DNA from: a virus
Strand: one strand, 5' to 3'
DNA: 64,000 nucleotides
IMG/VR virus record: IMGVR_UViG_3300027710_000025
Span: 7,314 to 71,313 of that record
Shown piece by piece: positions 2,345 to 63,830 of the stretch (the first letter of the stretch is position 1; the number at the start of each line of letters is the position of its first letter). Made by a program: the position numbers and the translations under genes. Under the pieces are notes generated by a model. The model saw only the letters and a list, made by a program, of their open reading frames with translations, was not told where the DNA came from and did not search any database.

Positions 2345-2373
2345 ATTATAACACGGTTTTACCACAATGTCAA
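2345..2373 (-). promoter_or_regulatory. sigma70 promoter with TGGTAAAACC box
   Basis: TTGACA-17-TATAAT, upstream hairpin AGACCC-GAAA-GGGTCT. Confidence 0.85.
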
Positions 2374-3153: not shown

Positions 3154-3492
3154 TCAATCTCCTCTAATGTCGCTGTTCAAAGCGGGTTGCAGTTCGCGTC
3201 GTATACGCACTTCTTCTTTGTGTGCAGGGGCCTTGCCGCGTACAACTGCCAGCACACGAACAACGATCTCGCCCTTGTCGTTGAGTTCACGAAGTGCTTC
3301 GCACAAGAGCCAGTCCTTGCCTTCTGTCTTAGCACGATAGAAGTGCTTTGCGGCACGTGTCTTTGCGGACTTCAATGCAGTGCTCTCTGTCTTTGCAGTG
3401 ACGCCAACGTAGGTCAAGCCGTTAACGTTAAGCTCATAGATCACATGATTGCGATCTGCTCTCTTTTTGCGATGTGTAAGTGTCTGTGTCAT
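3154..3492 (-). CDS. GIY-YIG-like nuclease-fold protein, probably leaderless
   Basis: VIY...YVG motif and late E...N; ATG lies at the predicted +1 of promoter 3499-3527. Confidence 0.6.
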   Translation of the reverse strand: MTQTLTHRKKRADRNHVIYELNVNGLTYVGVTAKTESTALKSAKTRAAKHFYRAKTEGKDWLLCEALRELNDKGEIVVRVLAVVRGKAPAHKEEVRIRRELQPALNSDIRGD

Positions 3493-3498
3493 GTATGT

Positions 3499-3527
3499 AT
3501 TATAACAAGGTTTTACCACTCTGTCAA
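3499..3527 (-). promoter_or_regulatory. sigma70 promoter with TGGTAAAACC box
   Basis: TTGACA-17-TATAAT, upstream hairpin AAAGGCCCTA..TAGGGTCTTT. Confidence 0.85.
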
Positions 3528-3568
3528 CCAAAGACCCTACAGTGCATAGGGCCTTTGATTATATAATA

Positions 3569-3712
3569 TTAATCTTCTATATAATAATCGTATGCACTAG
3601 CTAATGCATTAAATGCATCCTGTATGTCGACATTATCCTCATAATCCTCCATGATAATGTCTTGCATTTGCAACATTAAACTAGTAAGTTTCTCTTTAGT
3701 AGTTTCTGACAT
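3569..3712 (-). CDS. small acidic hypothetical protein (47 aa)
   Basis: MSETTKEKL..., AAGGAGC SD. Confidence 0.6.
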   Translation of the reverse strand: MSETTKEKLTSLMLQMQDIIMEDYEDNVDIQDAFNALASAYDYYIED

Positions 3713-3728
3713 AATAGCTCCTTATTAA

Positions 3729-3992
3729 TTAAACAAACTCTACATAATCTGTACGCATAGTCTTTTTAGCTTGTGCTATAATGCGTTCTTTATCTGCTTG
3801 CAGTGTCTCGTAACTAATATCTCCGCTAACATAAGCACATTGTTTTTGTGTAGGGAATATGTGTACAATATCCCCATTATCTTTTTCTTTAATATGCACA
3901 TTAAAAGCAAAGATAATCTTGTAAGTTTCTTTGTCTTTATAATAGATAATTTTAGCTTTTGCAGTGTTTGCAGTATAAACAGCTTTAGACAT
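3729..3992 (-). CDS. hypothetical protein (87 aa), AT-rich
   Basis: MSKAVY start after AAGGAGC SD and promoter. Confidence 0.7.
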   Translation of the reverse strand: MSKAVYTANTAKAKIIYYKDKETYKIIFAFNVHIKEKDNGDIVHIFPTQKQCAYVSGDISYETLQADKERIIAQAKKTMRTDYVEFV

Positions 3993-4016
3993 AGAGCTCC
4001 TTGTTAACATGTGTGT

Positions 4017-4045
4017 ATTATAGCAAGGTTTTACCACTTTGTCAA
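4017..4045 (-). promoter_or_regulatory. sigma70 promoter with TGGTAAAACC box
   Basis: TTGACA-17-TATAAT. Confidence 0.85.
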
Positions 4046-4090
4046 TAACTTTCTTTTTGTAGGGTCTTTCGTTGCGTATCAGCCACACAA

Positions 4091-4336
4091 GAGAAAGCCC
4101 TGGGCCAAATACCTCCCAGGGCCTCCTCAGTACATGCTGGGGCAGGTCTCCCCACATGTCCCCATCCAGTTATTCCTGGGATTTCTCCCGAGCCCTAACA
4201 CGCTTACTGCACGGTTCTGGATTCTCAGCAGTTGCGGCAGTCTACGACCTAGACCTCACCGTACCTACACAGTGCTCCCAGCCAGTAAGAACCTGCACCA
4301 GTTAATACGATTACCCTGCTGTTCTAGGGTTTAAAT
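4091..4336 (-). ncRNA. candidate structured ncRNA co-transcribed behind the tRNA
   Basis: GC-rich, no credible ORF, several helices, ends in hairpin GGCCCUGGG/CCCAGGGCU followed by UUCUCUU. Confidence 0.5.
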
Positions 4337-4414
<78 letters not shown>

Positions 4415-4426
4415 TGTCTATATGTA

Positions 4427-4455
4427 ATTATACAGTCACTTGCCTAAACTTGCAA
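4427..4455 (-). promoter_or_regulatory. sigma70 promoter of the tRNA
   Basis: TTGCAA-17-TATAAT. Confidence 0.7.
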
Positions 4456-5179
4456 CCGGAAAGTACTGCCAGTCTGATAACAGCACGGGAGTTAGATCCA
4501 TCTTTGAGCGGCGGATGAACCACTTGTCACGATGCAGATCCAGGCCGTCCACTAGGTTAGCAAAGCAGCTATCAATTAGATACAGCGACTCTGCACCTTC
4601 TATGACCTTTAGCCAGTCTACAGCATTATCAGTGAGCCCTTCTTGTATGTGTACTACTTGATAGCCCTGCTGTTCAGCATCTGACCAGTCTAGGTTCAAA
4701 CTCTTGTCTGATCCTGCTGTGTGTACAACTATATACTTTGGGTTCTGGACTACTCTGTTATACAGTGATTCTTCTACAACGGGGTCACGTGTAATGCACT
4801 CAGCCAGCCTCTGTTTATGCTTGAAAGGCACCCCCGCCACTGCATACTTGTATTGATCAAACTTCAGTATGGGGAATAGGTCCGGATCTGATAGTTCGGG
4901 CATGTTGCTGAGGAACTGATACAAGCATACGATCTCATCGCACTCTCGGTACTTGAGATTGTTCATAGCATGGAAGTAAAAGAAGCTTCCATCCCGTGTT
5001 GTCTTAAGTGGGATCCAAGTTACCCAGGGAGCACACTGAGTCATTGTTGGGATAAACTCTTCACAGATGGGCCAGAGTACCTCATCATAACCATTTTCCT
5101 TATAGTGTAAGGCAATGGGTAACGCGATGAATAGGTCTCCCAATCCTCGGCTCTGTATAATACCAATTCGTTTAGTCAT
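4436..5179 (-). CDS. GT9/heptosyltransferase-like glycosyltransferase
   Basis: N-terminal RGLGDLFIALP and C-terminal IDSCFANL motifs. Confidence 0.6.
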   Translation of the reverse strand: MTKRIGIIQSRGLGDLFIALPIALHYKENGYDEVLWPICEEFIPTMTQCAPWVTWIPLKTTRDGSFFYFHAMNNLKYRECDEIVCLYQFLSNMPELSDPDLFPILKFDQYKYAVAGVPFKHKQRLAECITRDPVVEESLYNRVVQNPKYIVVHTAGSDKSLNLDWSDAEQQGYQVVHIQEGLTDNAVDWLKVIEGAESLYLIDSCFANLVDGLDLHRDKWFIRRSKMDLTPVLLSDWQYFPVASLGK

Positions 5180-5227
5180 TAGTTCAATCTATTACAACGG
5201 GGTCTTACTGTATATACACAGTGTTGA

Positions 5228-5353
5228 TTACTTGCTGGTGTTACGCATGATCTGCTCTAGTACACGATCACGATCACGCTGCTTATATGCATGTGACTTA
5301 TAGAAGAACACTGCAAAGAAGCCTATGAAGAAGCTCTTAAGTATCTGGCCCAT
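5228..5353 (-). CDS. small protein with hydrophobic N-terminus (41 aa)
   Basis: GAAAGGA SD, promoter at 5392-5420. Confidence 0.5.
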   Translation of the reverse strand: MGQILKSFFIGFFAVFFYKSHAYKQRDRDRVLEQIMRNTSK

Positions 5354-5391
5354 TGTGTTATCCTTTCAAATCTACTTAGTGTATATAGTAT

Positions 5392-5420
5392 ATTATACAA
5401 CGGGGTCTTGGTTTTGTCAA
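5392..5420 (-). promoter_or_regulatory. sigma70 promoter
   Basis: TTGACA-17-TATAAT with the GACCCCGTTG repeat in the spacer. Confidence 0.8.
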
Positions 5421-5853
5421 GAGAATAGTGGTGCAACTGTGGGCATACCGTGGCAGAACCGCAACAGATCGGTGGCAGATCGGTGGTGAAATGGTGAAGA
5501 AATGGTCTGCTTTTGATGCCTTTTTGGTGATTTTCAGGCGGAAAACTATGGTTTTTCCACGGTGATTTAAGCTAGAATTTTTTAGAATGGTGTTGGGGAT
5601 GAGAGGTATAGCTAGAATGGTGCCAACCCATATTTCATCATATTCTTACTGTAGTCCACCTTGCCCCACCTTAGCCACTGCCATCCACTACTCTCTAATA
5701 GAACCCCCACAGTTCTTCCATCGGCCTTTACAACGGGGTCTAGTGTGTATATACTATAGTTGTTATATAGAGTATTCAAGTAGTTGCCAGTGACTAGATC
5801 AGTGTCTTATACACAGTCAGTTATACACTTAATTTACTTAAATATCTGTATAT

Positions 5854-6072
5854 ATGAACAAAGCACAGTTTCAAAAAGAGTTGTTAGCTTATACGCATAG
5901 TCTTTTAATACAGAGTCAATATGCGGATGCTGAACGCTCACAACAGTTATGCTATCAAATGGGCGTTCTTTTGAGTATGTTAACTGACCTAGCTGATGCT
6001 GACTCATACAACTATAAACGGATCTTATACACAGTGTATCCGGAACTTAGACCTCCTGCCAAGCGAGGTTGA
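5854..6072 (+). CDS. hypothetical protein
   Basis: 72-aa ORF downstream of TAAATA. Confidence 0.6.
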   Translation: MNKAQFQKELLAYTHSLLIQSQYADAERSQQLCYQMGVLLSMLTDLADADSYNYKRILYTVYPELRPPAKRG

Positions 6073-6103
6073 TAACTATGAGTTCTTATTGAGAGAACTA
6101 TAT

Positions 6104-6784
6104 ATGAATTTTGTTTTTGATGTTGACGGTACACTGACACCTAGTAGAGCACAGATGGATCCTGAGTTTAAGCAGTGGTTTAAGAATTGGATTAGACACC
6201 GGCCCGTGTATCTGGTCACTGGATCTGATTACGCTAAAACACTGGAACAGGTTGGTCGTGATCTTTGTGAATCAGTAACGGGTGTATATAACTGTGCTGC
6301 CAATCAACTGCATCGAAGTGGTGTTCAAGAGTATTCACAAGAGTTTACCTTATTACCCGAACAGAGAGGGTTCTTAGAAGGCCTATTGGCTGGATCACAA
6401 TGGCCCATACGCACTGGCAATCACATAGAAGATCGAGGTGCTTTGGTTAACTTCAGCACAGTGGGTCGTGGTGCTGATTCGGCACAAAGGGCATTGTATT
6501 CAGCTTGGGATCGTTCTGTACAAGAACGCAGACGTTTAGCAGTGTTAATTGAAACTCGTTATCCCGAACTGAGTGCTACAGTAGCGGGTGAAACGGGCAT
6601 TGACATATACCCACAGGGCCGGGACAAGAGCCAGATCTGTACAGATATTCGGGGCATTGTGTTCTTCGGGGATCAGACACAACCGGGTGGTAATGACTAC
6701 ACTATCAGTCAGCAGGCCCAAACAGTTCACACTGTCTCTTCGTGGTCTGATACTTGGGATATACTTCGAACCCAATATGCCTAA
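6104..6784 (+). CDS. HAD-IIB phosphomannomutase (eukaryotic PMM-like)
   Basis: FDVDGTLT, VTGSD, IEDRGALVNFS, GRDKS, FFGDQTQPGGNDY motifs. Confidence 0.85.
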   Translation: MNFVFDVDGTLTPSRAQMDPEFKQWFKNWIRHRPVYLVTGSDYAKTLEQVGRDLCESVTGVYNCAANQLHRSGVQEYSQEFTLLPEQRGFLEGLLAGSQWPIRTGNHIEDRGALVNFSTVGRGADSAQRALYSAWDRSVQERRRLAVLIETRYPELSATVAGETGIDIYPQGRDKSQICTDIRGIVFFGDQTQPGGNDYTISQQAQTVHTVSSWSDTWDILRTQYA

Positions 6785-8258
6785 AGCAGAGTGTGTGATC
6801 TTATGGAGTGATCAAAGCTGGACAGATCAGTCTAATGAGATCAGCAGATCGCTGAATGCGGGCTATCAAAAGAGCCTGGGTCCCTATTTGATCAGCAGTG
6901 CATTAAGGGATCAGGGCTATGCTACTCAAGTGGTTAATATCAGCTACATGACCTGGGATCAGCTGTGGGCACAGGTAGAACCCCTATTGGATCGAGATAC
7001 ACTGTGGGTAGGAGTCAGCACTACATTTGCCGTTAGAGGCCTGTTTGGGCTGATGACCCTGAAATCGGATTGGCGACAGATCATGCAGTTCATGGCCCGT
7101 GTACGCACAGTGAGTCCCCGGTGTCAGTTTGCCGCTGGTGGCTACTTCTCGGGAGTATGGACTAAATTGGGCTGGTGGGTGTTTAAAAATCACAGTGACG
7201 AAAGCATACTAGCGTGGACAGATCATTTGGCCGGCAAGAACCCCTTATGGACCCATACCAATCGCATCATAGAGGGCAATCATAACGAGTTGTTTAAGAC
7301 TCGTGTACACACATGGCACGATGTAAGTCGGGGTGAAGCCCTGCCCTTGGAGATCAGCAGGGGATGCAGATTCAAGTGTGCGTTCTGTAGGTTTAGCCTA
7401 AATGGCCGGGCCAAGAACGATTATCTACGTGACCCCCAGTGTATTAGGCGAGAGCTGGAGTCAAACTACGCACAATGGGGTACCACACGCTATACCCTAG
7501 CAGATGACACTTTTAACGAAAGCACAGAAAAGCTGGAAGCCATATGGCTAGCAGTAAAAGACCTTGAGTTCAGGGTCAGCTTCTCTGCATACATACGTGC
7601 TGACCTATTGGAAAGCCACCCTGAGCAGATTAGCTTGTTACGTGATCTGGGCATTGAGAACGCTATGTTTGGCATAGAGAGCTTGAACCCCCGCAACGGG
7701 CCCATAATTGGCAAAGCCCGTGACCCCCAGCGTACCATAGACTTTATTGCAGAGCTGAGAACCCAACACTGGCCCGGCGTGGGTCTGCACTCGGGATTCA
7801 TATTGGGACTGCCCTGGGATCGACCTGAGTCCTCGGGTGCTGAGCTAGCAGAATGGGCTGTGAGTGAACAATGCCCCCTGCACAGTGTCAGCATAGAATC
7901 ACTGAACATCATACGTCCCGCATGGCGTAAGTTCTGGAGCGAAAACAACACCCTGAGCCTGTTTGATGCCGATGCCGAGAAGTATGGGTATCTGTGGCTA
8001 GACCCCCGTGAGCAAGAGTGGACTAACAGTAATACGGGTATGAGTTTAACACAGGCCTATTTGGACAGCTACCGTGCTATGGAGAAGATCTACCATCATG
8101 CTGATCAGCATAGGGTAGCGGGTTTTGCATTTAACCGATTCATTAATTTGGGCATACCCGAGTCAGTGTTGACTACCCAGACCATCAAGCAGATCAGCCA
8201 GCAGTGGGATTTACCCGAACTGACTCGGCAGCGTCATTGGCTTTGCTCTAGCTCTTGA
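6777..8258 (+). CDS. B12-binding-domain radical SAM enzyme
   Basis: EISRGCRFKCAFC (CxxxCxxC), DDTFN, FGIES, GFILGLP; N-terminal cobalamin-binding-like domain. Confidence 0.85.
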   Translation: MPKAECVILWSDQSWTDQSNEISRSLNAGYQKSLGPYLISSALRDQGYATQVVNISYMTWDQLWAQVEPLLDRDTLWVGVSTTFAVRGLFGLMTLKSDWRQIMQFMARVRTVSPRCQFAAGGYFSGVWTKLGWWVFKNHSDESILAWTDHLAGKNPLWTHTNRIIEGNHNELFKTRVHTWHDVSRGEALPLEISRGCRFKCAFCRFSLNGRAKNDYLRDPQCIRRELESNYAQWGTTRYTLADDTFNESTEKLEAIWLAVKDLEFRVSFSAYIRADLLESHPEQISLLRDLGIENAMFGIESLNPRNGPIIGKARDPQRTIDFIAELRTQHWPGVGLHSGFILGLPWDRPESSGAELAEWAVSEQCPLHSVSIESLNIIRPAWRKFWSENNTLSLFDADAEKYGYLWLDPREQEWTNSNTGMSLTQAYLDSYRAMEKIYHHADQHRVAGFAFNRFINLGIPESVLTTQTIKQISQQWDLPELTRQRHWLCSSS

Positions 8259-14206: not shown

Positions 14207-15387
14207 TTATAATAGACAAAGATAAAGTACAGTCAGTTGCATGGAAGGATGATCCTGCCACTTATGATCAACGACTGCATCAACTAGGCCAGGGATTTGA
14301 TGAATTTATTATTGTCAATCCTATATTTGATGATTGGATACTAGACTATGTCAATACTGACTTATCGGCAGATCATTGTATCATGTGGACCAAGAAGGAC
14401 AAATGGATTGCTAAAAAGTTTAAAGGCACATGGACTCCTGCTGATGGATGGCGGGTAATTGAGTGTGACTTTAAAGTTGCAAAGGTAAATGAGTTCGATC
14501 TAGCAGAAGAGTTTAATCCTGACATTCCCGCCAACTTGTTCAAACCAATTACACAATCAATTGAACCAGAGGATTATAATTTAGAGCATGTGTGGTATCT
14601 AGATCCTAAGTACTTTCCCGGAGATAAGATTTGGGTTAAGAAAATACGTGCGTGTGAGCATCCTATGGGCATTAAGGATATGGGATATGTTACTCCCGAG
14701 ATACTTGACGAACTTGATGTAGTGTTTATAAGCTATGACGAATCTAACGCAGATGCTAATTGGAATAAAGTATTAAATCGAGTTCCTTTTGCACAACGAG
14801 TACACGGAGTCAAGGGAATATTTGAAGCACACAAGGCAGCAGCCGAACTAGCACAGACTGATATGTTTTGGGTAGTAGACGGTGATGCAGATTTGTTAGA
14901 TGATTGGCATTTCAATTATCAGCCAAACATATTCAATAGAGAGTGTGTGCATGTTTGGCCTAGCCGTAACGCAGTTAACGGTTTAGAATACGGATATGGG
15001 GGTGTAAAATTATTTCCTAGAAAACTATTGCTAGATGCACAGACATGGAATGTTGACTTGACTACTGGATTAGGTACAAAATTAAAAGTGATGAAACGAG
15101 TTAGCAACATTACTGCATTCAACACTGATCCTTTTAGCACATGGCGTAGTGCATTTAGAGAATGTGCTAAACTTGCCGCCGGCACTATTAAGAATCAGAT
15201 AGATGATGAAACTACGCTTAGATTAGACACTTGGTGCAGTGTGGCGTCGGGAGACTTTGGCGAGTTTGCAATCCTTGGAGCAACAGCAGGTAAACAATAC
15301 GGAGAAGAGCATAGATCAAACTCTACTGCGTTACGATTAATAAACAACCGTACATGGTTGAAAGAGAAATTCAATGAACAAATTTGA
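14203..15387 (+). CDS. GT-A-like putative glycosyltransferase with extra N-terminal domain
   Basis: C-terminal half is paralogous to the upstream gene (FISYDESNA..RVHGVKG..VVDGDA..WRSAFRE). Confidence 0.65.
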   Translation: MIIIDKDKVQSVAWKDDPATYDQRLHQLGQGFDEFIIVNPIFDDWILDYVNTDLSADHCIMWTKKDKWIAKKFKGTWTPADGWRVIECDFKVAKVNEFDLAEEFNPDIPANLFKPITQSIEPEDYNLEHVWYLDPKYFPGDKIWVKKIRACEHPMGIKDMGYVTPEILDELDVVFISYDESNADANWNKVLNRVPFAQRVHGVKGIFEAHKAAAELAQTDMFWVVDGDADLLDDWHFNYQPNIFNRECVHVWPSRNAVNGLEYGYGGVKLFPRKLLLDAQTWNVDLTTGLGTKLKVMKRVSNITAFNTDPFSTWRSAFRECAKLAAGTIKNQIDDETTLRLDTWCSVASGDFGEFAILGATAGKQYGEEHRSNSTALRLINNRTWLKEKFNEQI

Positions 15388-16693
15388 AAAAGATATAGAG
15401 CAGATAATGCCTACCTTCTGTGCTATACCCTTTGTTAGTATGGTAGTTAATACAGACGCAACCGTACAGCCCTGCTGTCTTATGCAACGCAATACACACA
15501 GGCTAAAAGATGCTAACGGAAAAGTACTTACCATAAATGAAAAATTGTCTGATTCATGGAATTCTAATGAAATGAAGTTTATTAGAACAGAGATGATATC
15601 TGGCAATAAATTAGTAGGATGTAATGTCTGCTACTTACAAGAAAGCAGTGGCCGCACCAGCAACCGTCAGTATGCTAATTCTGAATGGAGTAACAAACTA
15701 GGAGATAAGCATATGTTTGATCTAGTTGACAAAGCAGTGTTAACTGGTGGCGAACTTGATTACAGTCTTGCTTACTTAGATTTACGACTAGGTAATTTGT
15801 GTAATCTAAAATGTAGAATGTGTAGTCCTTTCAACAGTAGTCAGATTGCTAAAGAGCATATAGAATTAGAAAAGAAAGATCCGGAATATAAAGCAGTATG
15901 GGCAAAGAGTTTTGGTTTCTTTGACAAACGAATTAATGAAGTTCAATCCTGGTTTGAAAGAGATTTCTTGTGGGATCAAATCATTGATCTTATTCCTTCT
16001 TTAAAGAAAGTTTACATGACTGGAGGAGAGCCTACACTCATTCAGAACAACTTTAAATTTATGGAAGAATGTATCCGTAAAGGTCGCAGAGACATTGTAT
16101 TGTTCTTTAACACTAACTGCACTAATGTAAACAAGAAGTTCACTAGTCTAATCGGACAGTTTGGCAGAGTTAATATCAATGCCAGCATTGACGGTGTAGG
16201 TAGTGTGAACGATTATATTAGGAGTCCTAGCCATTGGGAACAGATTAATGGGAATGTAGAAACATTAGCACAAATGCCTAATGTTCATTTAGGAATAACT
16301 CCCACAGTACAGGTGTATAATGTGTTTAATCTTGTTGATACATTAAAATGGGTTGATCAGCTTAATTCCAAATATAAGAAAAGTATATTCGTTGACTTCT
16401 TAATAAATGTACATCCTGTTCATCTGTCTGTAACAATTCTACCAGACAGCATTAGGAACAAGGTAGCAAATGATTTAATAGAATACAAAAATACTTACTT
16501 AAACTCTCGTAGCCCTGAGTTAACAGTTAACAGTGTTAACGGCATTATAGGTTTATTGCAAAAACCAAGAGCAGCTGACTGGCAAGAGCAGCTGTCTCGA
16601 TTTAAAACTTATACACACTCATTAGATGTTGAAAGAGGTCAAAGCCTTAGATCTATCAGTGCAGAACTAGCGGACTTAATCAATGAAGAGTAA
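15374..16693 (+). CDS. radical SAM protein with N-terminal SPASM/twitch-like Cys domain
   Basis: CNLKCRMC, TGGEP, NTN, SIDG; N-terminal C..CC..CxxC. Confidence 0.88.
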   Translation: MNKFEKDIEQIMPTFCAIPFVSMVVNTDATVQPCCLMQRNTHRLKDANGKVLTINEKLSDSWNSNEMKFIRTEMISGNKLVGCNVCYLQESSGRTSNRQYANSEWSNKLGDKHMFDLVDKAVLTGGELDYSLAYLDLRLGNLCNLKCRMCSPFNSSQIAKEHIELEKKDPEYKAVWAKSFGFFDKRINEVQSWFERDFLWDQIIDLIPSLKKVYMTGGEPTLIQNNFKFMEECIRKGRRDIVLFFNTNCTNVNKKFTSLIGQFGRVNINASIDGVGSVNDYIRSPSHWEQINGNVETLAQMPNVHLGITPTVQVYNVFNLVDTLKWVDQLNSKYKKSIFVDFLINVHPVHLSVTILPDSIRNKVANDLIEYKNTYLNSRSPELTVNSVNGIIGLLQKPRAADWQEQLSRFKTYTHSLDVERGQSLRSISAELADLINEE

Positions 16694-17918
16694 AACATTT
16701 TGTATCTTACCCTGGACACACATTGCTACCTACACCGATGGCAGTGCATTACTATGCTGTGTGTCTGGAAGCGAACCTAACCTAAATCTAAACAAACTGT
16801 CTTTGCAAGAAGTTTGGAACAGTGATCACTTTAAGTCAGCAAGGAAGAATATGTTGCAGGGTATCCCTGTTAAGAACTGTTCAGCCTGTTATAAAGAAGA
16901 ACAGGTAGGAATACACAGTCATCGACAGATTGAAAATCACATATGGAAAGGTAAGCTAGGGGAAGACTACATCAACGAGCTTGTGGCCAGTACTAACGAA
17001 GACGGCTCCCTAGACAGAGATTGGATCACACTTGATCTAAGACTAGGTAATACCTGTAATCTACAATGTGTTATGTGCCGACCTATTGACTCTAGTAAAT
17101 GGGTAAAACATGCAACCATTCTAAAACAAGAACTTACTACAGAAGCCAAATGGGATTGGAAACACAAAGTTGATAACTATTCTACAAATAACTTTGAATG
17201 GTACAAAGACGATAAGTTCTTAGAAGACTTTTACAGTGCTGCAACAGACATTAAACATATTATATTTGGTGGGGGCGAACCTTTGTATATTAAAGAGCAC
17301 AAGGAGATACTGACTAGATTAGTAGAGTCTGGTGCAAGTAAAAACATTGACTTGCGTTATCACACCAACGGTACTATCTACGATAAAGAAGTAGTTGAGT
17401 TATGGACTAAGTTTAAGTATGTAGACATTATGATCAGCATTGATGGCGGCAAAGAGATCAATGACTATATTAGATATCCTGCCGACTGGGACACAATTGA
17501 ACGTAATCTACATCTGTATGACAACACTCCTGCTAACATTGATATTAAAATACTATGTACAGTACAGGCATTAAACATTTATTATCTACCTGAGTTTGCT
17601 GATTGGTTGCTGATGCAGAACTATAAAAAGATCAGCAAACCTAGACTGGATGGTATTTTTCATACCGGCACACTGCATTATCCTCAGTACCTATGCACTA
17701 AGGTATTGCCTAAACACACAAAGGCCAAAGTTGCTGAAAAGATATATCGATATGCGGAACAGCACACAGACAATCCTGCTATTCAACGATTAACAAAAAT
17801 GATAGACTTTATGAACAGTGAAGACTGGAGCAGTAAATTAGATCAAACTGTTGAATACATTAATAAGTTAGATTCCCTACGATCTACTAACAGCGAGTTT
17901 TTTAAGAAGTTACTATGA
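16683..17918 (+). CDS. radical SAM protein with N-terminal SPASM/twitch-like Cys domain
   Basis: CNLQCVMC, GGGEP, HTNG, SIDG; tandem paralog. Confidence 0.88.
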   Translation: MKSKTFCILPWTHIATYTDGSALLCCVSGSEPNLNLNKLSLQEVWNSDHFKSARKNMLQGIPVKNCSACYKEEQVGIHSHRQIENHIWKGKLGEDYINELVASTNEDGSLDRDWITLDLRLGNTCNLQCVMCRPIDSSKWVKHATILKQELTTEAKWDWKHKVDNYSTNNFEWYKDDKFLEDFYSAATDIKHIIFGGGEPLYIKEHKEILTRLVESGASKNIDLRYHTNGTIYDKEVVELWTKFKYVDIMISIDGGKEINDYIRYPADWDTIERNLHLYDNTPANIDIKILCTVQALNIYYLPEFADWLLMQNYKKISKPRLDGIFHTGTLHYPQYLCTKVLPKHTKAKVAEKIYRYAEQHTDNPAIQRLTKMIDFMNSEDWSSKLDQTVEYINKLDSLRSTNSEFFKKLL

Positions 17919-62594: not shown

Positions 62595-63830
62595 ATGAAG
62601 AAAATTTTAGTAGTCGGCGTCGGCACGGCTGGTATTATAACTCTAGGTCAGATGGCTTCCTCCCTAGATGACAATTGGGAAATACATTCTGTGTATGATC
62701 CTAATATCCCAATTTTAGGGGTAGGAGAAGCAACTAGCACTAATGCACCGTTAGCATTCTTTAAAGGCCTAGGATTTAACATGGCCTATGACGCAGAGAG
62801 ATTAAGTGCAACATTCAAGTACGGTGTTCGGTATACCAACTGGAGAGAGCACACTTTTGATAGCTTAATCTTACCGCCAAACTATGCTATACATTTTGAT
62901 AATACAAAATTGAAAGAAGTTGGGTTCGAACGATTAAAAGAACGTTACCCAAATAAATTTAAATCGTTTGAAGGTACAGTTGAGTACATGAAGAACATAG
63001 ACAACGGTGTTGAAGTTAAGATCAACAATAGTATTCATGTGTATGATTATGTAGTTGATTGTGGAGGGTTTCCTAAAGACTACACAGGCTACACTATGGT
63101 AGACCTTCCTATTAATCATGCATTAGTTGCAGCAGTACATAAAGAAGGTGACTGGAACTATACACATCATTGGGCACATCGGAATGGCTGGATGTTTGGC
63201 ATTCCTTTACAACATCGTCAGGGGTGGGGATATCTTTATAATGATACTATTACTTCTAAGGAAGATGCACTAGCGGACATGGCCAGTATTATTAAAGTTC
63301 CAAAAGAAGATATAAAGTTTAGAGAATATACTTTTAAACCATATCATGCATCTGAAAACTTAATAGATGGTCGAATTCTTAAAAACGGTAATAGGTACAT
63401 GTTCTTTGAGCCAATGGAAGCATTGTCCATGGAATATTATGTGAGATTGAATGTAGAGTACATTAAACTTATAAATGGGGAAACTAGTAGACAGAAGATT
63501 ATTAATAATACTCTTTTTGAAGTCAACGGATTAATTTCATTCTACAGATATATGTATCACGGCGGTTCGATCTACGATACAGACTTTTGGAGAATAACAA
63601 AAGAAAATACTCGAAATCATTTATTAGCTGATAAACAATTTCTAAAGATGTTGGCATTTTATAATGATAATGCACACAGACCTGATGTTTCGACTGCAAT
63701 GACTATTCAACCGTTCTTTGCTTATACATGGGAACAGTTTGATAAAAATTTAGGTTATAATTATTTCAAACAGGTAAAGAAAGAAATTACTAAACCAAAA
63801 GTAAAAATACCCGGGTTACTATTTGGTTGA
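62595..63830 (+). CDS. tryptophan-halogenase-like flavoprotein
   Basis: GVGTAG, GVGEAT, ATFK, WMFGIP, FFEPMEA. Confidence 0.8.
   Translation: MKKILVVGVGTAGIITLGQMASSLDDNWEIHSVYDPNIPILGVGEATSTNAPLAFFKGLGFNMAYDAERLSATFKYGVRYTNWREHTFDSLILPPNYAIHFDNTKLKEVGFERLKERYPNKFKSFEGTVEYMKNIDNGVEVKINNSIHVYDYVVDCGGFPKDYTGYTMVDLPINHALVAAVHKEGDWNYTHHWAHRNGWMFGIPLQHRQGWGYLYNDTITSKEDALADMASIIKVPKEDIKFREYTFKPYHASENLIDGRILKNGNRYMFFEPMEALSMEYYVRLNVEYIKLINGETSRQKIINNTLFEVNGLISFYRYMYHGGSIYDTDFWRITKENTRNHLLADKQFLKMLAFYNDNAHRPDVSTAMTIQPFFAYTWEQFDKNLGYNYFKQVKKEITKPKVKIPGLLFG

What the first reader, a model, noticed from the sequence alone, without database searches (positions are those of the whole stretch)
4091..4336. 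About 245-nt structured RNA directly behind tRNA-Ile(CAU)
Seen: after the tRNA CCA the minus-strand transcript continues through a GC-rich, ORF-free stretch. Helices include ACCCU/AGGGU, UGCA-GGUUCU/AGAACC-G-UGCA (alternative CUUACUG/CAGUAAG, a possible switch or pseudoknot), GUCUA/UAGAC, GGGA-GAAA-UCCC and ACAUG-UGGGG/CCCCA-G-CAUGU, then a terminator-like GGCCCUGGG/CCCAGGGCU. Known: large phage ncRNAs such as GOLLD and ROOL often sit beside tRNAs, but are longer. Inference: a second new ncRNA released by tRNA 3' processing.
Basis: partly seen in the sequence, partly recalled or inferred. Interest (0 to 1): 0.7.

Follow-up and report, generated by a model that had tools for sequence, protein, structure and literature searches.

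The report
New structured phage RNA behind tRNA
Right behind a phage tRNA gene lies the gene of a compactly folded non-coding RNA of about 215 bases that matches no described RNA family, recurs in dozens of related uncultured large phages, and has no known function.

Summary
Window 4336-4124 (minus strand) encodes a conserved, highly structured non-coding RNA. It directly follows tRNA(CAU) (4414-4337) and is followed by a terminator-like hairpin and U-tract (4123-4088).

I found 44 distinct variants in viral and metagenome contigs. There were none among 42 pattern hits in bacterial and archaeal genomes, and none in GenBank phages.

On 40 distinct sequences, 96.4% of pair cells form standard pairs, against 34-42% when the partners are slid. 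The fold has:
- helices P1 to P7;
- a 7-bp loop-loop (kissing) helix in which all 7 pairs covary;
- a 3-bp pseudoknot that docks the 3' hairpin loop onto the core.

Its "alternative" helix CUUACUG/CAGUAAG is the real kissing helix.

No Rfam family matches. T4 rnaC/rnaD and HDV-like theta ribozymes share the position next to a tRNA, but not sequence or fold.

32 of 40 assessable variants follow a tRNA(CAU). The other 8 have no tRNA nearby and 7 of them show a promoter-like site, so release by tRNA processing is plausible for the window but is not the rule for the family.

Function is unknown. The closest kind is the tRNA-linked "ornate" phage RNAs GOLLD and ROOL. Expression was not shown.

The parts
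4427..4455 (-). sigma-70-type promoter-like site (TTGCAA, 17 nt, TATAAT). Its -10 hexamer ends 12 nt before the tRNA 5' end.
   Evidence: 10 of 12 matches; sequence. Function is inferred.
4337..4414 (-). tRNA with CAU anticodon and encoded CCA, most likely tRNA-Ile2 type
   Evidence: The full-length E. coli matches are annotated tRNA-Ile in all 8 rows shown.
4124..4336 (-). core of the conserved structured ncRNA (P1-P7, kissing loop, pseudoknot, 3' motif ACUGAGGA)
   Evidence: Covariance-model matches at 4085-4336 (R1, 226 bits) and 4081-4336 (R2, 185.5 bits). Pair counts. Element map.
4161..4329 (-). P1: CCC 4327-4329 pairs with GGG 4161-4163 and closes the multi-helix core
   Evidence: 100% paired. 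The third pair is GC in 20, CG in 18 and UA in 1 sequence.
4259..4310 (-). P2 arm: P2' 4306-4310/4259-4263, P2 4295-4299/4271-4275, P2b 4291-4293/4280-4282. It closes an 8-nt loop.
   Evidence: helices 2 and 3: 95.8% and 99% paired, 10 of 10 pairs with changes on both sides. (P2b 100% paired, 2 of 3 pairs with changes on both sides).
4283..4289 (-). kissing-loop 5' strand CUUACUG (loop of P2b)
   Evidence: Pairs with 4203-4209. helix 4: 7 of 7 pairs covary and 100% of cells are paired. This helix was not part of either covariance model.
4203..4209 (-). kissing-loop 3' strand CAGUAAG (loop of P5)
4233..4258 (-). P3 (UGAGGU/GCCGCA), enclosing hairpin P3a GGUC-GUA-GACU (4239-4249)
   Evidence: helix 5 (83.5% paired); an N-U-A triloop hairpin of 3 bp or more in 26 of 27 distinct loop sequences.
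4165..4221 (-). P4 (UCCAG 4217-4221 / CUGGA 4165-4169), enclosing P5 (4212-4216/4197-4202), junction UAGGG, P6 hairpin (4175-4192) and junction AGGAAUAA
   Evidence: helices 6, 7 and 9 (100%, 91% and 97% paired).
4144..4196 (-). pseudoknot PK2: AGG 4194-4196 (junction between P5 and P6) pairs with CCU 4144-4146 (loop of P7)
   Evidence: helix 8: 100% paired. The middle pair is GC in 21, AU in 18 and GU in 1 sequence. It was not part of the covariance models.
4132..4159 (-). P7 hairpin with conserved loop AGACCUG
   Evidence: helix 10: 10 of 10 pairs with changes on both sides, 97.8% paired.
4088..4123 (-). intrinsic-terminator-like hairpin (9 bp, 10-nt loop) followed by UUCUCUUG
   Evidence: Sequence. 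Missed by the scan; its rule allows loops of 3-8. In the alignment rows most homologues show a different hairpin plus T-run at this position (read by eye, not counted).

Best explanation
Window 4336-4088 (minus strand) is the gene of a member of an undescribed family of compactly folded phage non-coding RNAs. The core is about 213 nt and is followed by a terminator hairpin of about 35 nt.

Transcription and ends (inferred): the promoter-like site at 4455-4427 drives one transcript, made of a short leader, tRNA(CAU), the RNA and the terminator. RNase P and the host's tRNA 3'-end endonucleases would separate the tRNA from the RNA. The RNA's 3' end would be set and protected by the terminator hairpin.

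Fold (shown by covariation): P1 closes a multi-helix core. A 7-bp loop-loop helix ties the P2 arm to P5. A 3-bp pseudoknot docks the loop of the 3' hairpin P7 onto the junction between P5 and P6.

Mode of action (inferred): it acts in trans as a stable, pre-organised RNA particle, either a scaffold for a partner or an RNA-only assembly. It would work the way the tRNA-linked ornate phage RNAs GOLLD and ROOL and the T4 stable RNAs C and D are thought to. It is not a cis regulator of a neighbouring gene. The biochemical function is not known.
For: Conservation and distribution:
- 44 distinct variants were found.
- A context-free DNA pattern gave 18 viral loci. 10 of these lie on new contigs and all 10 match the covariance model. 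The other 8 lie on contigs already known to hold the RNA.
- The same pattern gave 36 model-positive loci among 80 listed metagenome loci.

Structure:
- On 40 distinct sequences, 96.4% of 2172 cells are paired, against 34-42% for slid partners.
- 45 of 55 pairs show changes on both sides, and 0 of 500 shuffles reach the covariation score.
- The kissing helix and PK2 were not in the covariance models, so the alignment was not fitted to them. Both are 100% paired.

Not coding: no frame stays open across 19 homologues.

Transcription unit:
- A promoter-like site lies upstream of the tRNA and the gap between CCA and the RNA is 0 nt.
- In the alignment rows most homologues show a hairpin plus T-run after the conserved ACUGA motif (read by eye, not counted).

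Not a cis leader:
- A separate 12-of-12 promoter (4045-4017) serves the next gene.
- The sequence downstream differs between loci.

Precedents:
- T4 has tRNA-Arg, then rnaD 1 nt later, then rnaC, both annotated 'small, stable RNA'.
- GOLLD and ROOL are encoded in phages 'often near tRNA islands', and GOLLD env-38 lies 'downstream of Met-tRNA' (PMC12286853, passages).
Against: - No expression data. The four metatranscriptome runs laid on the window gave no contig over 4085-4336, which proves nothing either way.
- The RNA's ends are inferred, not mapped.
- The terminator fails the consensus scan.
- Two nearly complete related genomes (331 kb and 353 kb) and one 54% complete record (194 kb) gave no match to model R1. 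Several relatives have the tRNA without this RNA. The RNA is therefore accessory.
- No partner protein is identified. The most constant neighbour, a 112-aa GIY-YIG-like gene in 35 of 43 loci, also occurs next to the tRNA where the RNA is absent.
- 8 of 40 variants lack a tRNA, so tRNA-linked release is not general.
Confidence: 0.6

Rival explanations
1. It is a self-cleaving ribozyme that cuts at or near its own 5' end and so matures the tRNA 3' end in cis. The much smaller HDV-like theta ribozymes of gut phages are proposed to do this.
For: - The RNA abuts the CCA in the window. The gap is 0-4 nt in 13 of 32 tRNA-linked variants.
- The fold has two pseudoknots and many invariant junction nucleotides.
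- Theta ribozymes sit with their cleavage site next to phage tRNAs, and over 70% are associated with tRNA-Met, suppressor tRNA or tRNA-Leu (PMC10879173, passages).
Against: - 19 of 32 tRNA-linked variants have 12-59 nt of unconserved spacer, and 8 of 40 variants have no tRNA.
- No HDV-like or other ribozyme family of Rfam matches at E up to 10 in the window or up to 1 in 15 related loci.
- At about 213 nt the core is far larger than the small ribozymes (under 200 nt) that the theta-ribozyme paper describes; that minimal HDV-like ribozymes are well under 100 nt is recalled.
- The helix order does not fit the nested double pseudoknot of HDV-like ribozymes. That topology is recalled, not tested by a tool.
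Confidence: 0.12
2. It is a riboswitch-like ligand sensor. Its terminator is conditional and tunes read-through from the tRNA unit into the downstream small genes.
For: - Its size and architecture resemble large aptamers: a multi-way junction closed by P1, a loop-loop contact, and a terminator directly after it.
- Downstream genes are on the same strand in most loci. The GIY-YIG-like gene is on the same strand in 35 of 35 loci that have it.
Against: - The next gene has its own 12-of-12 promoter.
- The first downstream gene differs between loci, and in L004 the sequence read suggests a gene on the opposite strand.
- I saw no conserved pairing between core and terminator stem. The terminator sequences are unrelated between homologues.
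- No Rfam riboswitch family matches.
Confidence: 0.08
3. The trailer is a passive, G+C-rich 3' extension that only stabilises or terminates the tRNA transcript and is degraded after processing. It has no function of its own.
For: - No expression or stability data exist.
- The RNA is missing from some relatives that keep the tRNA.
Against: - A passive trailer would not keep 55 base pairs through compensatory changes in sequences only 41-60% identical across subgroups.
- It would not keep about 60 near-invariant unpaired nucleotides.
- It would not occur without any tRNA nearby in 8 of 40 variants, 7 of them with a promoter-like site upstream.
Confidence: 0.03

Closest known systems
GOLLD and ROOL, large 'ornate' phage and prophage RNAs
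   Same: They are encoded by phages and are often near tRNA islands; GOLLD env-38 lies downstream of a Met-tRNA. They are complex pseudoknotted folds with covarying loop-loop pairs, have no known protein partner and no known function (PMC12286853, passages read).
   Different: GOLLD members often exceed 800 nt; ROOL's length of roughly 500-600 nt is recalled. This core is about 213 nt. No Rfam family, which as far as I recall includes GOLLD and ROOL, matches the window at E up to 10 or 15 related loci at E up to 1. Oligomerisation is untested here.
T4 stable RNAs rnaC and rnaD (species 1 and 2)
   Same: They are small stable RNAs of unknown function. [quoted passage not shown]
   Different: They are 119 and 139 nt long. 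Model R2 scores the T4 locus only at noise level: 9.5 bits over rnaD, while four unrelated places score 10.1-10.4 bits. There is no evidence of homology.
Theta (minimal HDV-like) ribozymes next to phage tRNAs
   Same: They are structured RNAs immediately 3' of phage tRNAs, mostly tRNA-Met, suppressor tRNA or tRNA-Leu, and are proposed to process the tRNA 3' trailer (PMC10879173, passages).
   Different: They are minimal HDV-like ribozymes with a nested double pseudoknot, defined by a cleavage site within 5 nt of the tRNA end. Here the core is about 213 nt with a different helix order, the spacing is 0-59 nt, 8 of 40 variants lack a tRNA, and no ribozyme family matches.
phi29 pRNA and large junction riboswitches (lysine, cobalamin); features recalled, not tested
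   Same: They have covarying loop-loop (kissing) pairs as a key architectural element. In pRNA these pairs are intermolecular.
   Different: They have other sequences, other genomic contexts and known functions (DNA packaging, cis regulation). Rfam gave no match for any family.

Membership tests
Any Rfam 15 family (including GOLLD, ROOL, HDV-like ribozymes, riboswitches, RNase P, tmRNA, 6S) | Covariance-model match at or near the family's gathering score | tested here: not met
   The whole window at gathering score gives only the tRNA. Positions 3900-4600 at E up to 10 give the tRNA and an antisense-of-tRNA hit. 15 related loci at E up to 1 give the same two kinds of hit only.
T4 rnaC/rnaD-type stable RNAs | Gene directly abuts a tRNA 3' end inside a phage tRNA transcription unit | tested here: met
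   Window gap is 0 nt. In T4 rnaD starts 1 nt after tRNA-Arg.
T4 rnaC/rnaD-type stable RNAs | Sequence or structure homology to rnaC or rnaD | tested here: not met
   R2 on the T4 locus with filters off: the best scores are about 10 bits and scattered over coding sequence. rnaD scores 9.5 bits, within that noise.
Theta / HDV-like ribozymes | Ribozyme 5' end (cleavage site) within 5 nt of the tRNA 3' end | tested here: inconclusive
   Met in the window (gap 0) and in 13 of 32 tRNA-linked variants. Not met in 19 of 32 (gap 12-59 nt), and 8 of 40 variants have no tRNA.
Theta / HDV-like ribozymes | Nested double-pseudoknot HDV fold, and self-scission | tested here: not met
   No HDV-type Rfam match. 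The helix order found differs from the HDV topology, which I recall rather than tested. Self-scission cannot be tested with these tools.
GOLLD/ROOL-type ornate RNAs (as a kind) | Phage-encoded, near tRNAs, multi-pseudoknot fold conserved by covariation | tested here: met
   The description of the kind comes from PMC12286853.
GOLLD/ROOL-type ornate RNAs (as a kind) | Homo-oligomeric RNA-only assembly through intermolecular kissing loops | not testable with these tools
   Covariation cannot tell intramolecular from intermolecular pairing.
Cis-acting riboswitch | Lies in the leader of a conserved regulated gene, with mutually exclusive aptamer and terminator pairings | tested here: not met
   The downstream gene has its own promoter. 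Downstream content varies. No conserved alternative pairing is seen in the alignment.
tRNA-Ile2 (CAU, lysidine type), for the upstream tRNA | CAU anticodon and a body closer to tRNA-Ile(CAU) than to tRNA-Met | tested here: met
   Anticodon CAT. Full-length E. coli matches at 78.8% identity are annotated tRNA-Ile in all 8 rows shown of 5120 records. Lysidine modification cannot be tested.

The most novel reading that the evidence does not exclude
This is the smallest member so far of the 'ornate' tRNA-linked phage RNAs. Its perfectly covarying 7-bp loop-loop helix, and perhaps the 3-bp pseudoknot, would be intermolecular, so that the 215-nt RNA assembles into an RNA-only homo-oligomer during infection. 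Covariation-predicted kissing loops of GOLLD and ROOL turned out to be intermolecular in this way (PMC12286853). Alternatively, it is a new class of ribozyme acting on the tRNA precursor.
Probability: 0.2. Interest if true: 0.85.

Novelty: new variant of a known kind. Interest (0 to 1): 0.62.

Why it matters
New complex-folded RNA classes are rare. A fold with seven helices, a kissing loop and a pseudoknot, held by covariation across 40 distinct sequences, is such a case.

Past examples turned out to be ribozymes, riboswitches, guide RNAs or self-assembling RNA cages. This one is short enough (about 215 nt) for direct synthesis, chemical probing, crystallography or cryo-EM.

It also extends an old, unexplained pattern in which phages place stable RNAs of unknown function next to their tRNA genes: T4 RNAs C and D, GOLLD and ROOL. 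If a function is found here, it could shed light on that whole group.

The family is restricted to an uncultured clade of large phages. The window's record is estimated at 20% complete at 71 kb, and related contigs reach 331-353 kb.

Tried and rejected
Expression:
- One search for RNA runs gave 5 metatranscriptomes holding 5-11% of the sampled words.
- Laying 4 of them gave contigs only over the conserved tRNA core and parts of the flanking ORFs, and none over 4085-4336.
- This is no evidence for or against expression, and none for habitat.
- One 128-nt contig of run X1 continues from the tRNA 3' end into an A+T-rich stretch that reads AAACCC on the RNA strand. It looks like a relative's tRNA-spacer-RNA junction. 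DNA carry-over cannot be excluded.

Cultured phages:
- blastn of the tRNA plus RNA, of the core alone and of a divergent variant, and tblastn of the upstream 247-aa protein, found only tRNA matches or nothing in GenBank phages.

Bacterial and archaeal genomes:
- 42 pattern hits, none model-positive. The pattern catches only 7 of the 10 variants it was designed on, so divergent forms could be missed.

Unifying the divergent trailers:
- Models R1 and R2 find in group B (L022, L024, L025, L026) only the P7, ACUGAGAA and terminator module, at 10-22 bits.
- They find nothing in group C.
- A group-B-specific pattern found only the four known contigs.

Other attempts:
- A sequence-only profile (nhmmer) found no members beyond the input.
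- I looked for an RNA-binding partner among neighbours. The window's large ORFs gave DNA ligase, ribonucleotide reductase, radical SAM and tail-fibre-type domains.
- By eye I considered and dropped RNase P-like (AGGAAUAAGU resembling a conserved RNase P motif), T-box-like and B12-box-like resemblances. All were recalled motifs, none had an Rfam hit, and the helix order differed.
- Relatives cannot be drawn for a virus record.

Full report
**1. What is at the coordinates**

The window is part of a 71-kb viral record that CheckV rates at 20% complete. ARAGORN and Rfam find one tRNA, with anticodon CAT, at 4337-4414 on the minus strand.

- Upstream lies a promoter-like site: TTGCAA, 17 nt, TATAAT, at 4455-4427, matching 10 of 12 positions.
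- Directly after the encoded CCA the minus strand runs through 250 bases with G+C of 0.53-0.59, between flanks of 0.26-0.38.
- The stretch ends in a 9-bp G+C-rich hairpin with a 10-nt loop followed by UUCUCUUG (4123-4088). The consensus scan reports 0 terminators; its rule allows loops of 3-8.
- 43 bases further on there is a perfect 12-of-12 promoter (4045-4017), then a Shine-Dalgarno-like AAGGAG and an 87-codon ORF starting at 3992.

Mechanical ORFs overlap the stretch on both strands. In 19 homologues the longest open stretch jumps between frames and strands, so nothing is conserved as coding.

**2. Is it more than chance?**

The single-sequence fold is only mildly unusual: z = -2.31, and 5 of 200 shuffles fold as well. 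The decisive evidence is comparative.

How the homologues were found:
- The upstream 247-aa gene led to 26 related viral loci, and then 80 with a protein profile. Many of them carry a tRNA(CAT) followed by a homologous trailer.
- A first four-sequence alignment already gave 30 of 48 predicted pairs with compensatory changes.
- I then searched independently of gene context with a degenerate DNA pattern taken from three conserved motifs:
  - Viral contigs: 18 loci. The 10 on new contigs all match the covariance model at 74-176 bits. The other 8 lie on contigs already known to hold the RNA.
  - Metagenome contigs: 117 stretches. Of the 80 loci listed, 36 are model-positive, with 37 hits.
  - One genome for each of 185,579 prokaryote species: 42 loci, none model-positive.

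In all there are 44 distinct variants. One search lists 45 strings, but two of them are the window's own RNA cut at different ends.

**3. The fold**

On the 41-row alignment (40 distinct sequences; identities down to 41-60% between subgroups in the 19-sequence matrix), my structure of 55 pairs gives the following:
- 96.4% of 2172 cells form standard pairs. The shuffled mean is 66.0%, and slid partners give 34-42%.
- 45 pairs show changes on both sides.
- The covariation score is 0.793, against 0.205 for shuffles. None of 500 shuffles reaches it.
- One measure is weaker: the count of further pair types is reached by 6 of 500 shuffles.

The nested helices come from an alignment fitted to the model, which favours them. 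Two elements were never in either model, so the alignment could not have been fitted to them:
- **Kissing helix.** A 7-bp helix joins the 8-nt loop of the P2 arm to the loop of P5 (window CUUACUG 4283-4289 with CAGUAAG 4203-4209). It is 100% paired and all 7 pairs covary.
- **PK2.** A 3-bp pseudoknot joins AGG in the junction between P5 and P6 to CCU in the P7 loop (4194-4196 with 4144-4146). It is 100% paired, and the middle pair is GC in 21, AU in 18 and GU in 1 sequence.

Further details:
- P2b, which closes the kissing loop, is 100% paired with two covarying pairs.
- P3 encloses a small hairpin with an N-U-A triloop in 26 of 27 distinct loop sequences, with 20 different stems.
- About 60 unpaired positions are nearly invariant. 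They include AAACC at the 5' end, GAUAUA, AGG...CUGGGAG around the kissing loop, UGAGG, GGCUC, AGGAAYAA, the P7 loop GA.AC.UGC, and ACUGA before the terminator.

The GUCUA/UAGAC site holds in a shifted register. ACCCU/AGGGU and UGCAGGUUCU/AGAACCGUGCA are paired in only 44-57% of cells and are window-specific.

**4. Context**

Of the 40 variants whose upstream sequence can be assessed:

| Upstream context | Variants |
|---|---|
| tRNA(CAT) on the same strand, gap 0-4 nt | 13 |
| tRNA on the same strand, gap 12-59 nt of unconserved A+T-rich spacer (two of these have tRNA-Leu(UAA) in between) | 19 |
| No tRNA within 400 nt | 8 |

- Of the 8 variants without a tRNA, 7 show a promoter-like site. 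In four, TTGCCC-N17/18-TATACT or TATAAT has its -10 ending 9-16 nt before the RNA start. In three, the site lies 52-96 nt upstream. The eighth was listed with only 73 nt upstream and was not scanned. A near-identical sequence (L126) has such a site.
- The tRNA body can differ while the RNA is kept, as in L030.
- Some relatives keep the tRNA but lack the RNA (L009, L018, L097).
- Two nearly complete relatives of 331 and 353 kb, and a 194-kb record rated 54% complete, have no R1 match.
- The window's own record has one copy.

The RNA is therefore a self-contained, accessory gene that usually rides in a tRNA transcription unit.

The tRNA is probably of the tRNA-Ile2 type. Its full-length E. coli matches, at 78.8% identity, are annotated tRNA-Ile in all 8 rows shown of 5120 records.

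**5. What it is not**

- No Rfam family matches, at gathering score or permissively. The only extra hit is an Rfam family matching the antisense strand of the tRNA.
- It is not a leader. The next gene has its own promoter, and the downstream content varies.
- It does not match T4 rnaC or rnaD, where model R2 scores only noise. The layout, however, is strikingly alike: T4 has tRNA-Arg, then rnaD 1 nt later, then rnaC, with the GIY-YIG gene segB in the cluster (PMC2330249, passages).
- It does not fit theta/HDV-like ribozymes, which are minimal and defined by a cleavage site within 5 nt of the tRNA end (PMC10879173, passages).

**6. How it most likely works**

Shown: the fold, the conservation, the restriction to phages, the linkage to a tRNA, and the absence of coding potential.

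Inferred: in the window the promoter-like site at 4455-4427 would drive one transcript. RNase P and the host's tRNA 3'-end nucleases would release the tRNA, leaving the RNA with a 5' end near 4336-4330. The terminator hairpin would form the 3' end.

The density of invariant junction nucleotides and the two long-range contacts point to a rigid, pre-organised particle acting in trans. It could bind a partner or assemble with itself.

The closest kind is GOLLD and ROOL. These are phage RNAs near tRNA islands (GOLLD env-38 lies downstream of a Met-tRNA), of unknown function. Their covariation-predicted kissing loops proved to be intermolecular bridges of RNA-only cages (PMC12286853, passages). Covariation here cannot tell pairing in cis from pairing in trans. 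That leaves open the bolder reading that this 215-nt RNA oligomerises.

The rivals rank lower, for the reasons given under each: self-cleaving ribozyme (0.12), riboswitch (0.08) and passive trailer (0.03).

**7. Novelty, and its limits**

I found no description of this RNA in four full-text searches, in Rfam 15, or in GenBank phages.

For the papers listed, I saw only search listings and abstracts, except for passages of PMC2330249, PMC10879173 and PMC12286853. Supplementary tables were closed. Motif catalogues such as PMC5737381, PMC8040213 and the 2026 bioRxiv preprint on intergenic features, and the list of 1753 theta ribozymes, could hold this motif under another name.

I class it as a new variant of a known kind: the tRNA-linked, complex-folded phage RNAs of unknown function. 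Expression and function remain untested.

Noticed in passing
window 3157-3492 (-): A 112-aa gene is the most constant neighbour of the RNA, downstream on the same strand in 35 of 43 loci. It has no significant Pfam or PDB sequence hit. Its AlphaFold model (pLDDT 86.6) is most like GIY-YIG nuclease domains: the I-TevI catalytic domain (prob 0.99, TM 0.57-0.68) and the UvrC N-terminal domain (E 0.06) (weak E-values). By eye it carries IYEL...YIGVT motifs. It also occurs next to the tRNA in relatives that lack the RNA (L018). This recalls segB in the T4 tRNA cluster.
   Followed up: partly
window 2355-2373, 3509-3527, 4027-4045 (all -): A promoter motif TTGACA-NNN-TGGTAAAACC is repeated 3 times, against 0.08 expected. 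By my reading of the ORF list each copy sits in front of a small minus-strand gene, and the same motif recurs in related loci. At 3492 the ATG follows the -10 hexamer by only 6 bases (read from the ORF translation), which suggests a leaderless or very short-leader mRNA.
   Followed up: partly
L012:5097-5385, L013:5119-5365, L017:5043-5340, L020:4966-5215, L089:2515-2775: More distant relatives carry a different ORF-poor trailer of 250-300 nt behind the same kind of tRNA(CAT). It has its own covarying structure: 31 of 50 predicted pairs have compensatory changes in 5 sequences. It shares with the window's family a CUA-triloop hairpin and a CCGUAAC motif, but models R1 and R2 do not match it. 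It may be a third architectural type of the same superfamily.
   Followed up: partly
L022:1957-2250, L024:5068-5365, L025:5049-5330, L026:4275-4560: The 'group B' trailers start with the same UUAAACC, contain GUCAUAGAC, and end with the same P7-like hairpin (loop GGACCUYAGC), ACUGAGAA and terminator. Their core is different and larger. The models match only the 3' module.
   Followed up: partly
L249 (2.5-kb metagenome contig) against window 3559-5837: The contig is 99.7% identical to the window over 2279 bases, but it diverges at window position 3559. There it carries a second, divergent copy of the RNA on the opposite strand, convergent with the first. This is either a strain variant or an assembly chimera. 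The window's own record has only one copy.
   Followed up: partly
window 5194-5206, 5397-5409 (-), 3531-3543 (+); region 5180-5780: In the 800-bp stretch between the divergent genes at 5179 and 5996, the motif ACAACGGGGTCTT (AAGACCCCGTTGT on the other strand) is repeated next to TATATAC-rich stretches. The degenerate pattern has 3 matches against 0.15 expected. The region also has a strong G/C skew.
   Followed up: no
window 4339-4414 (+) and tRNAs of L030, L101 and others: The Rfam family Plastid-ycf2 5'UTR matches the antisense strand of these tRNAs, below its gathering score: 27.5 bits in the window and 54.6 bits in L030. My reading, from recalled plastid gene order, is that the family overlaps the complement of plastid trnI-CAU. 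That would fit a tRNA-Ile(CAU) identity.
   Followed up: no
window 6588-8258, 15374-16693, 16683-17918 (+): There are three radical-SAM proteins, two of them with SPASM domains. The window also encodes a phosphomannomutase-like protein (5996-6784), a tryptophan-halogenase-like protein (62595-63830), an ATP-dependent DNA ligase, both subunits of ribonucleotide reductase, and Mtd_N tail-fibre proteins.
   Followed up: no
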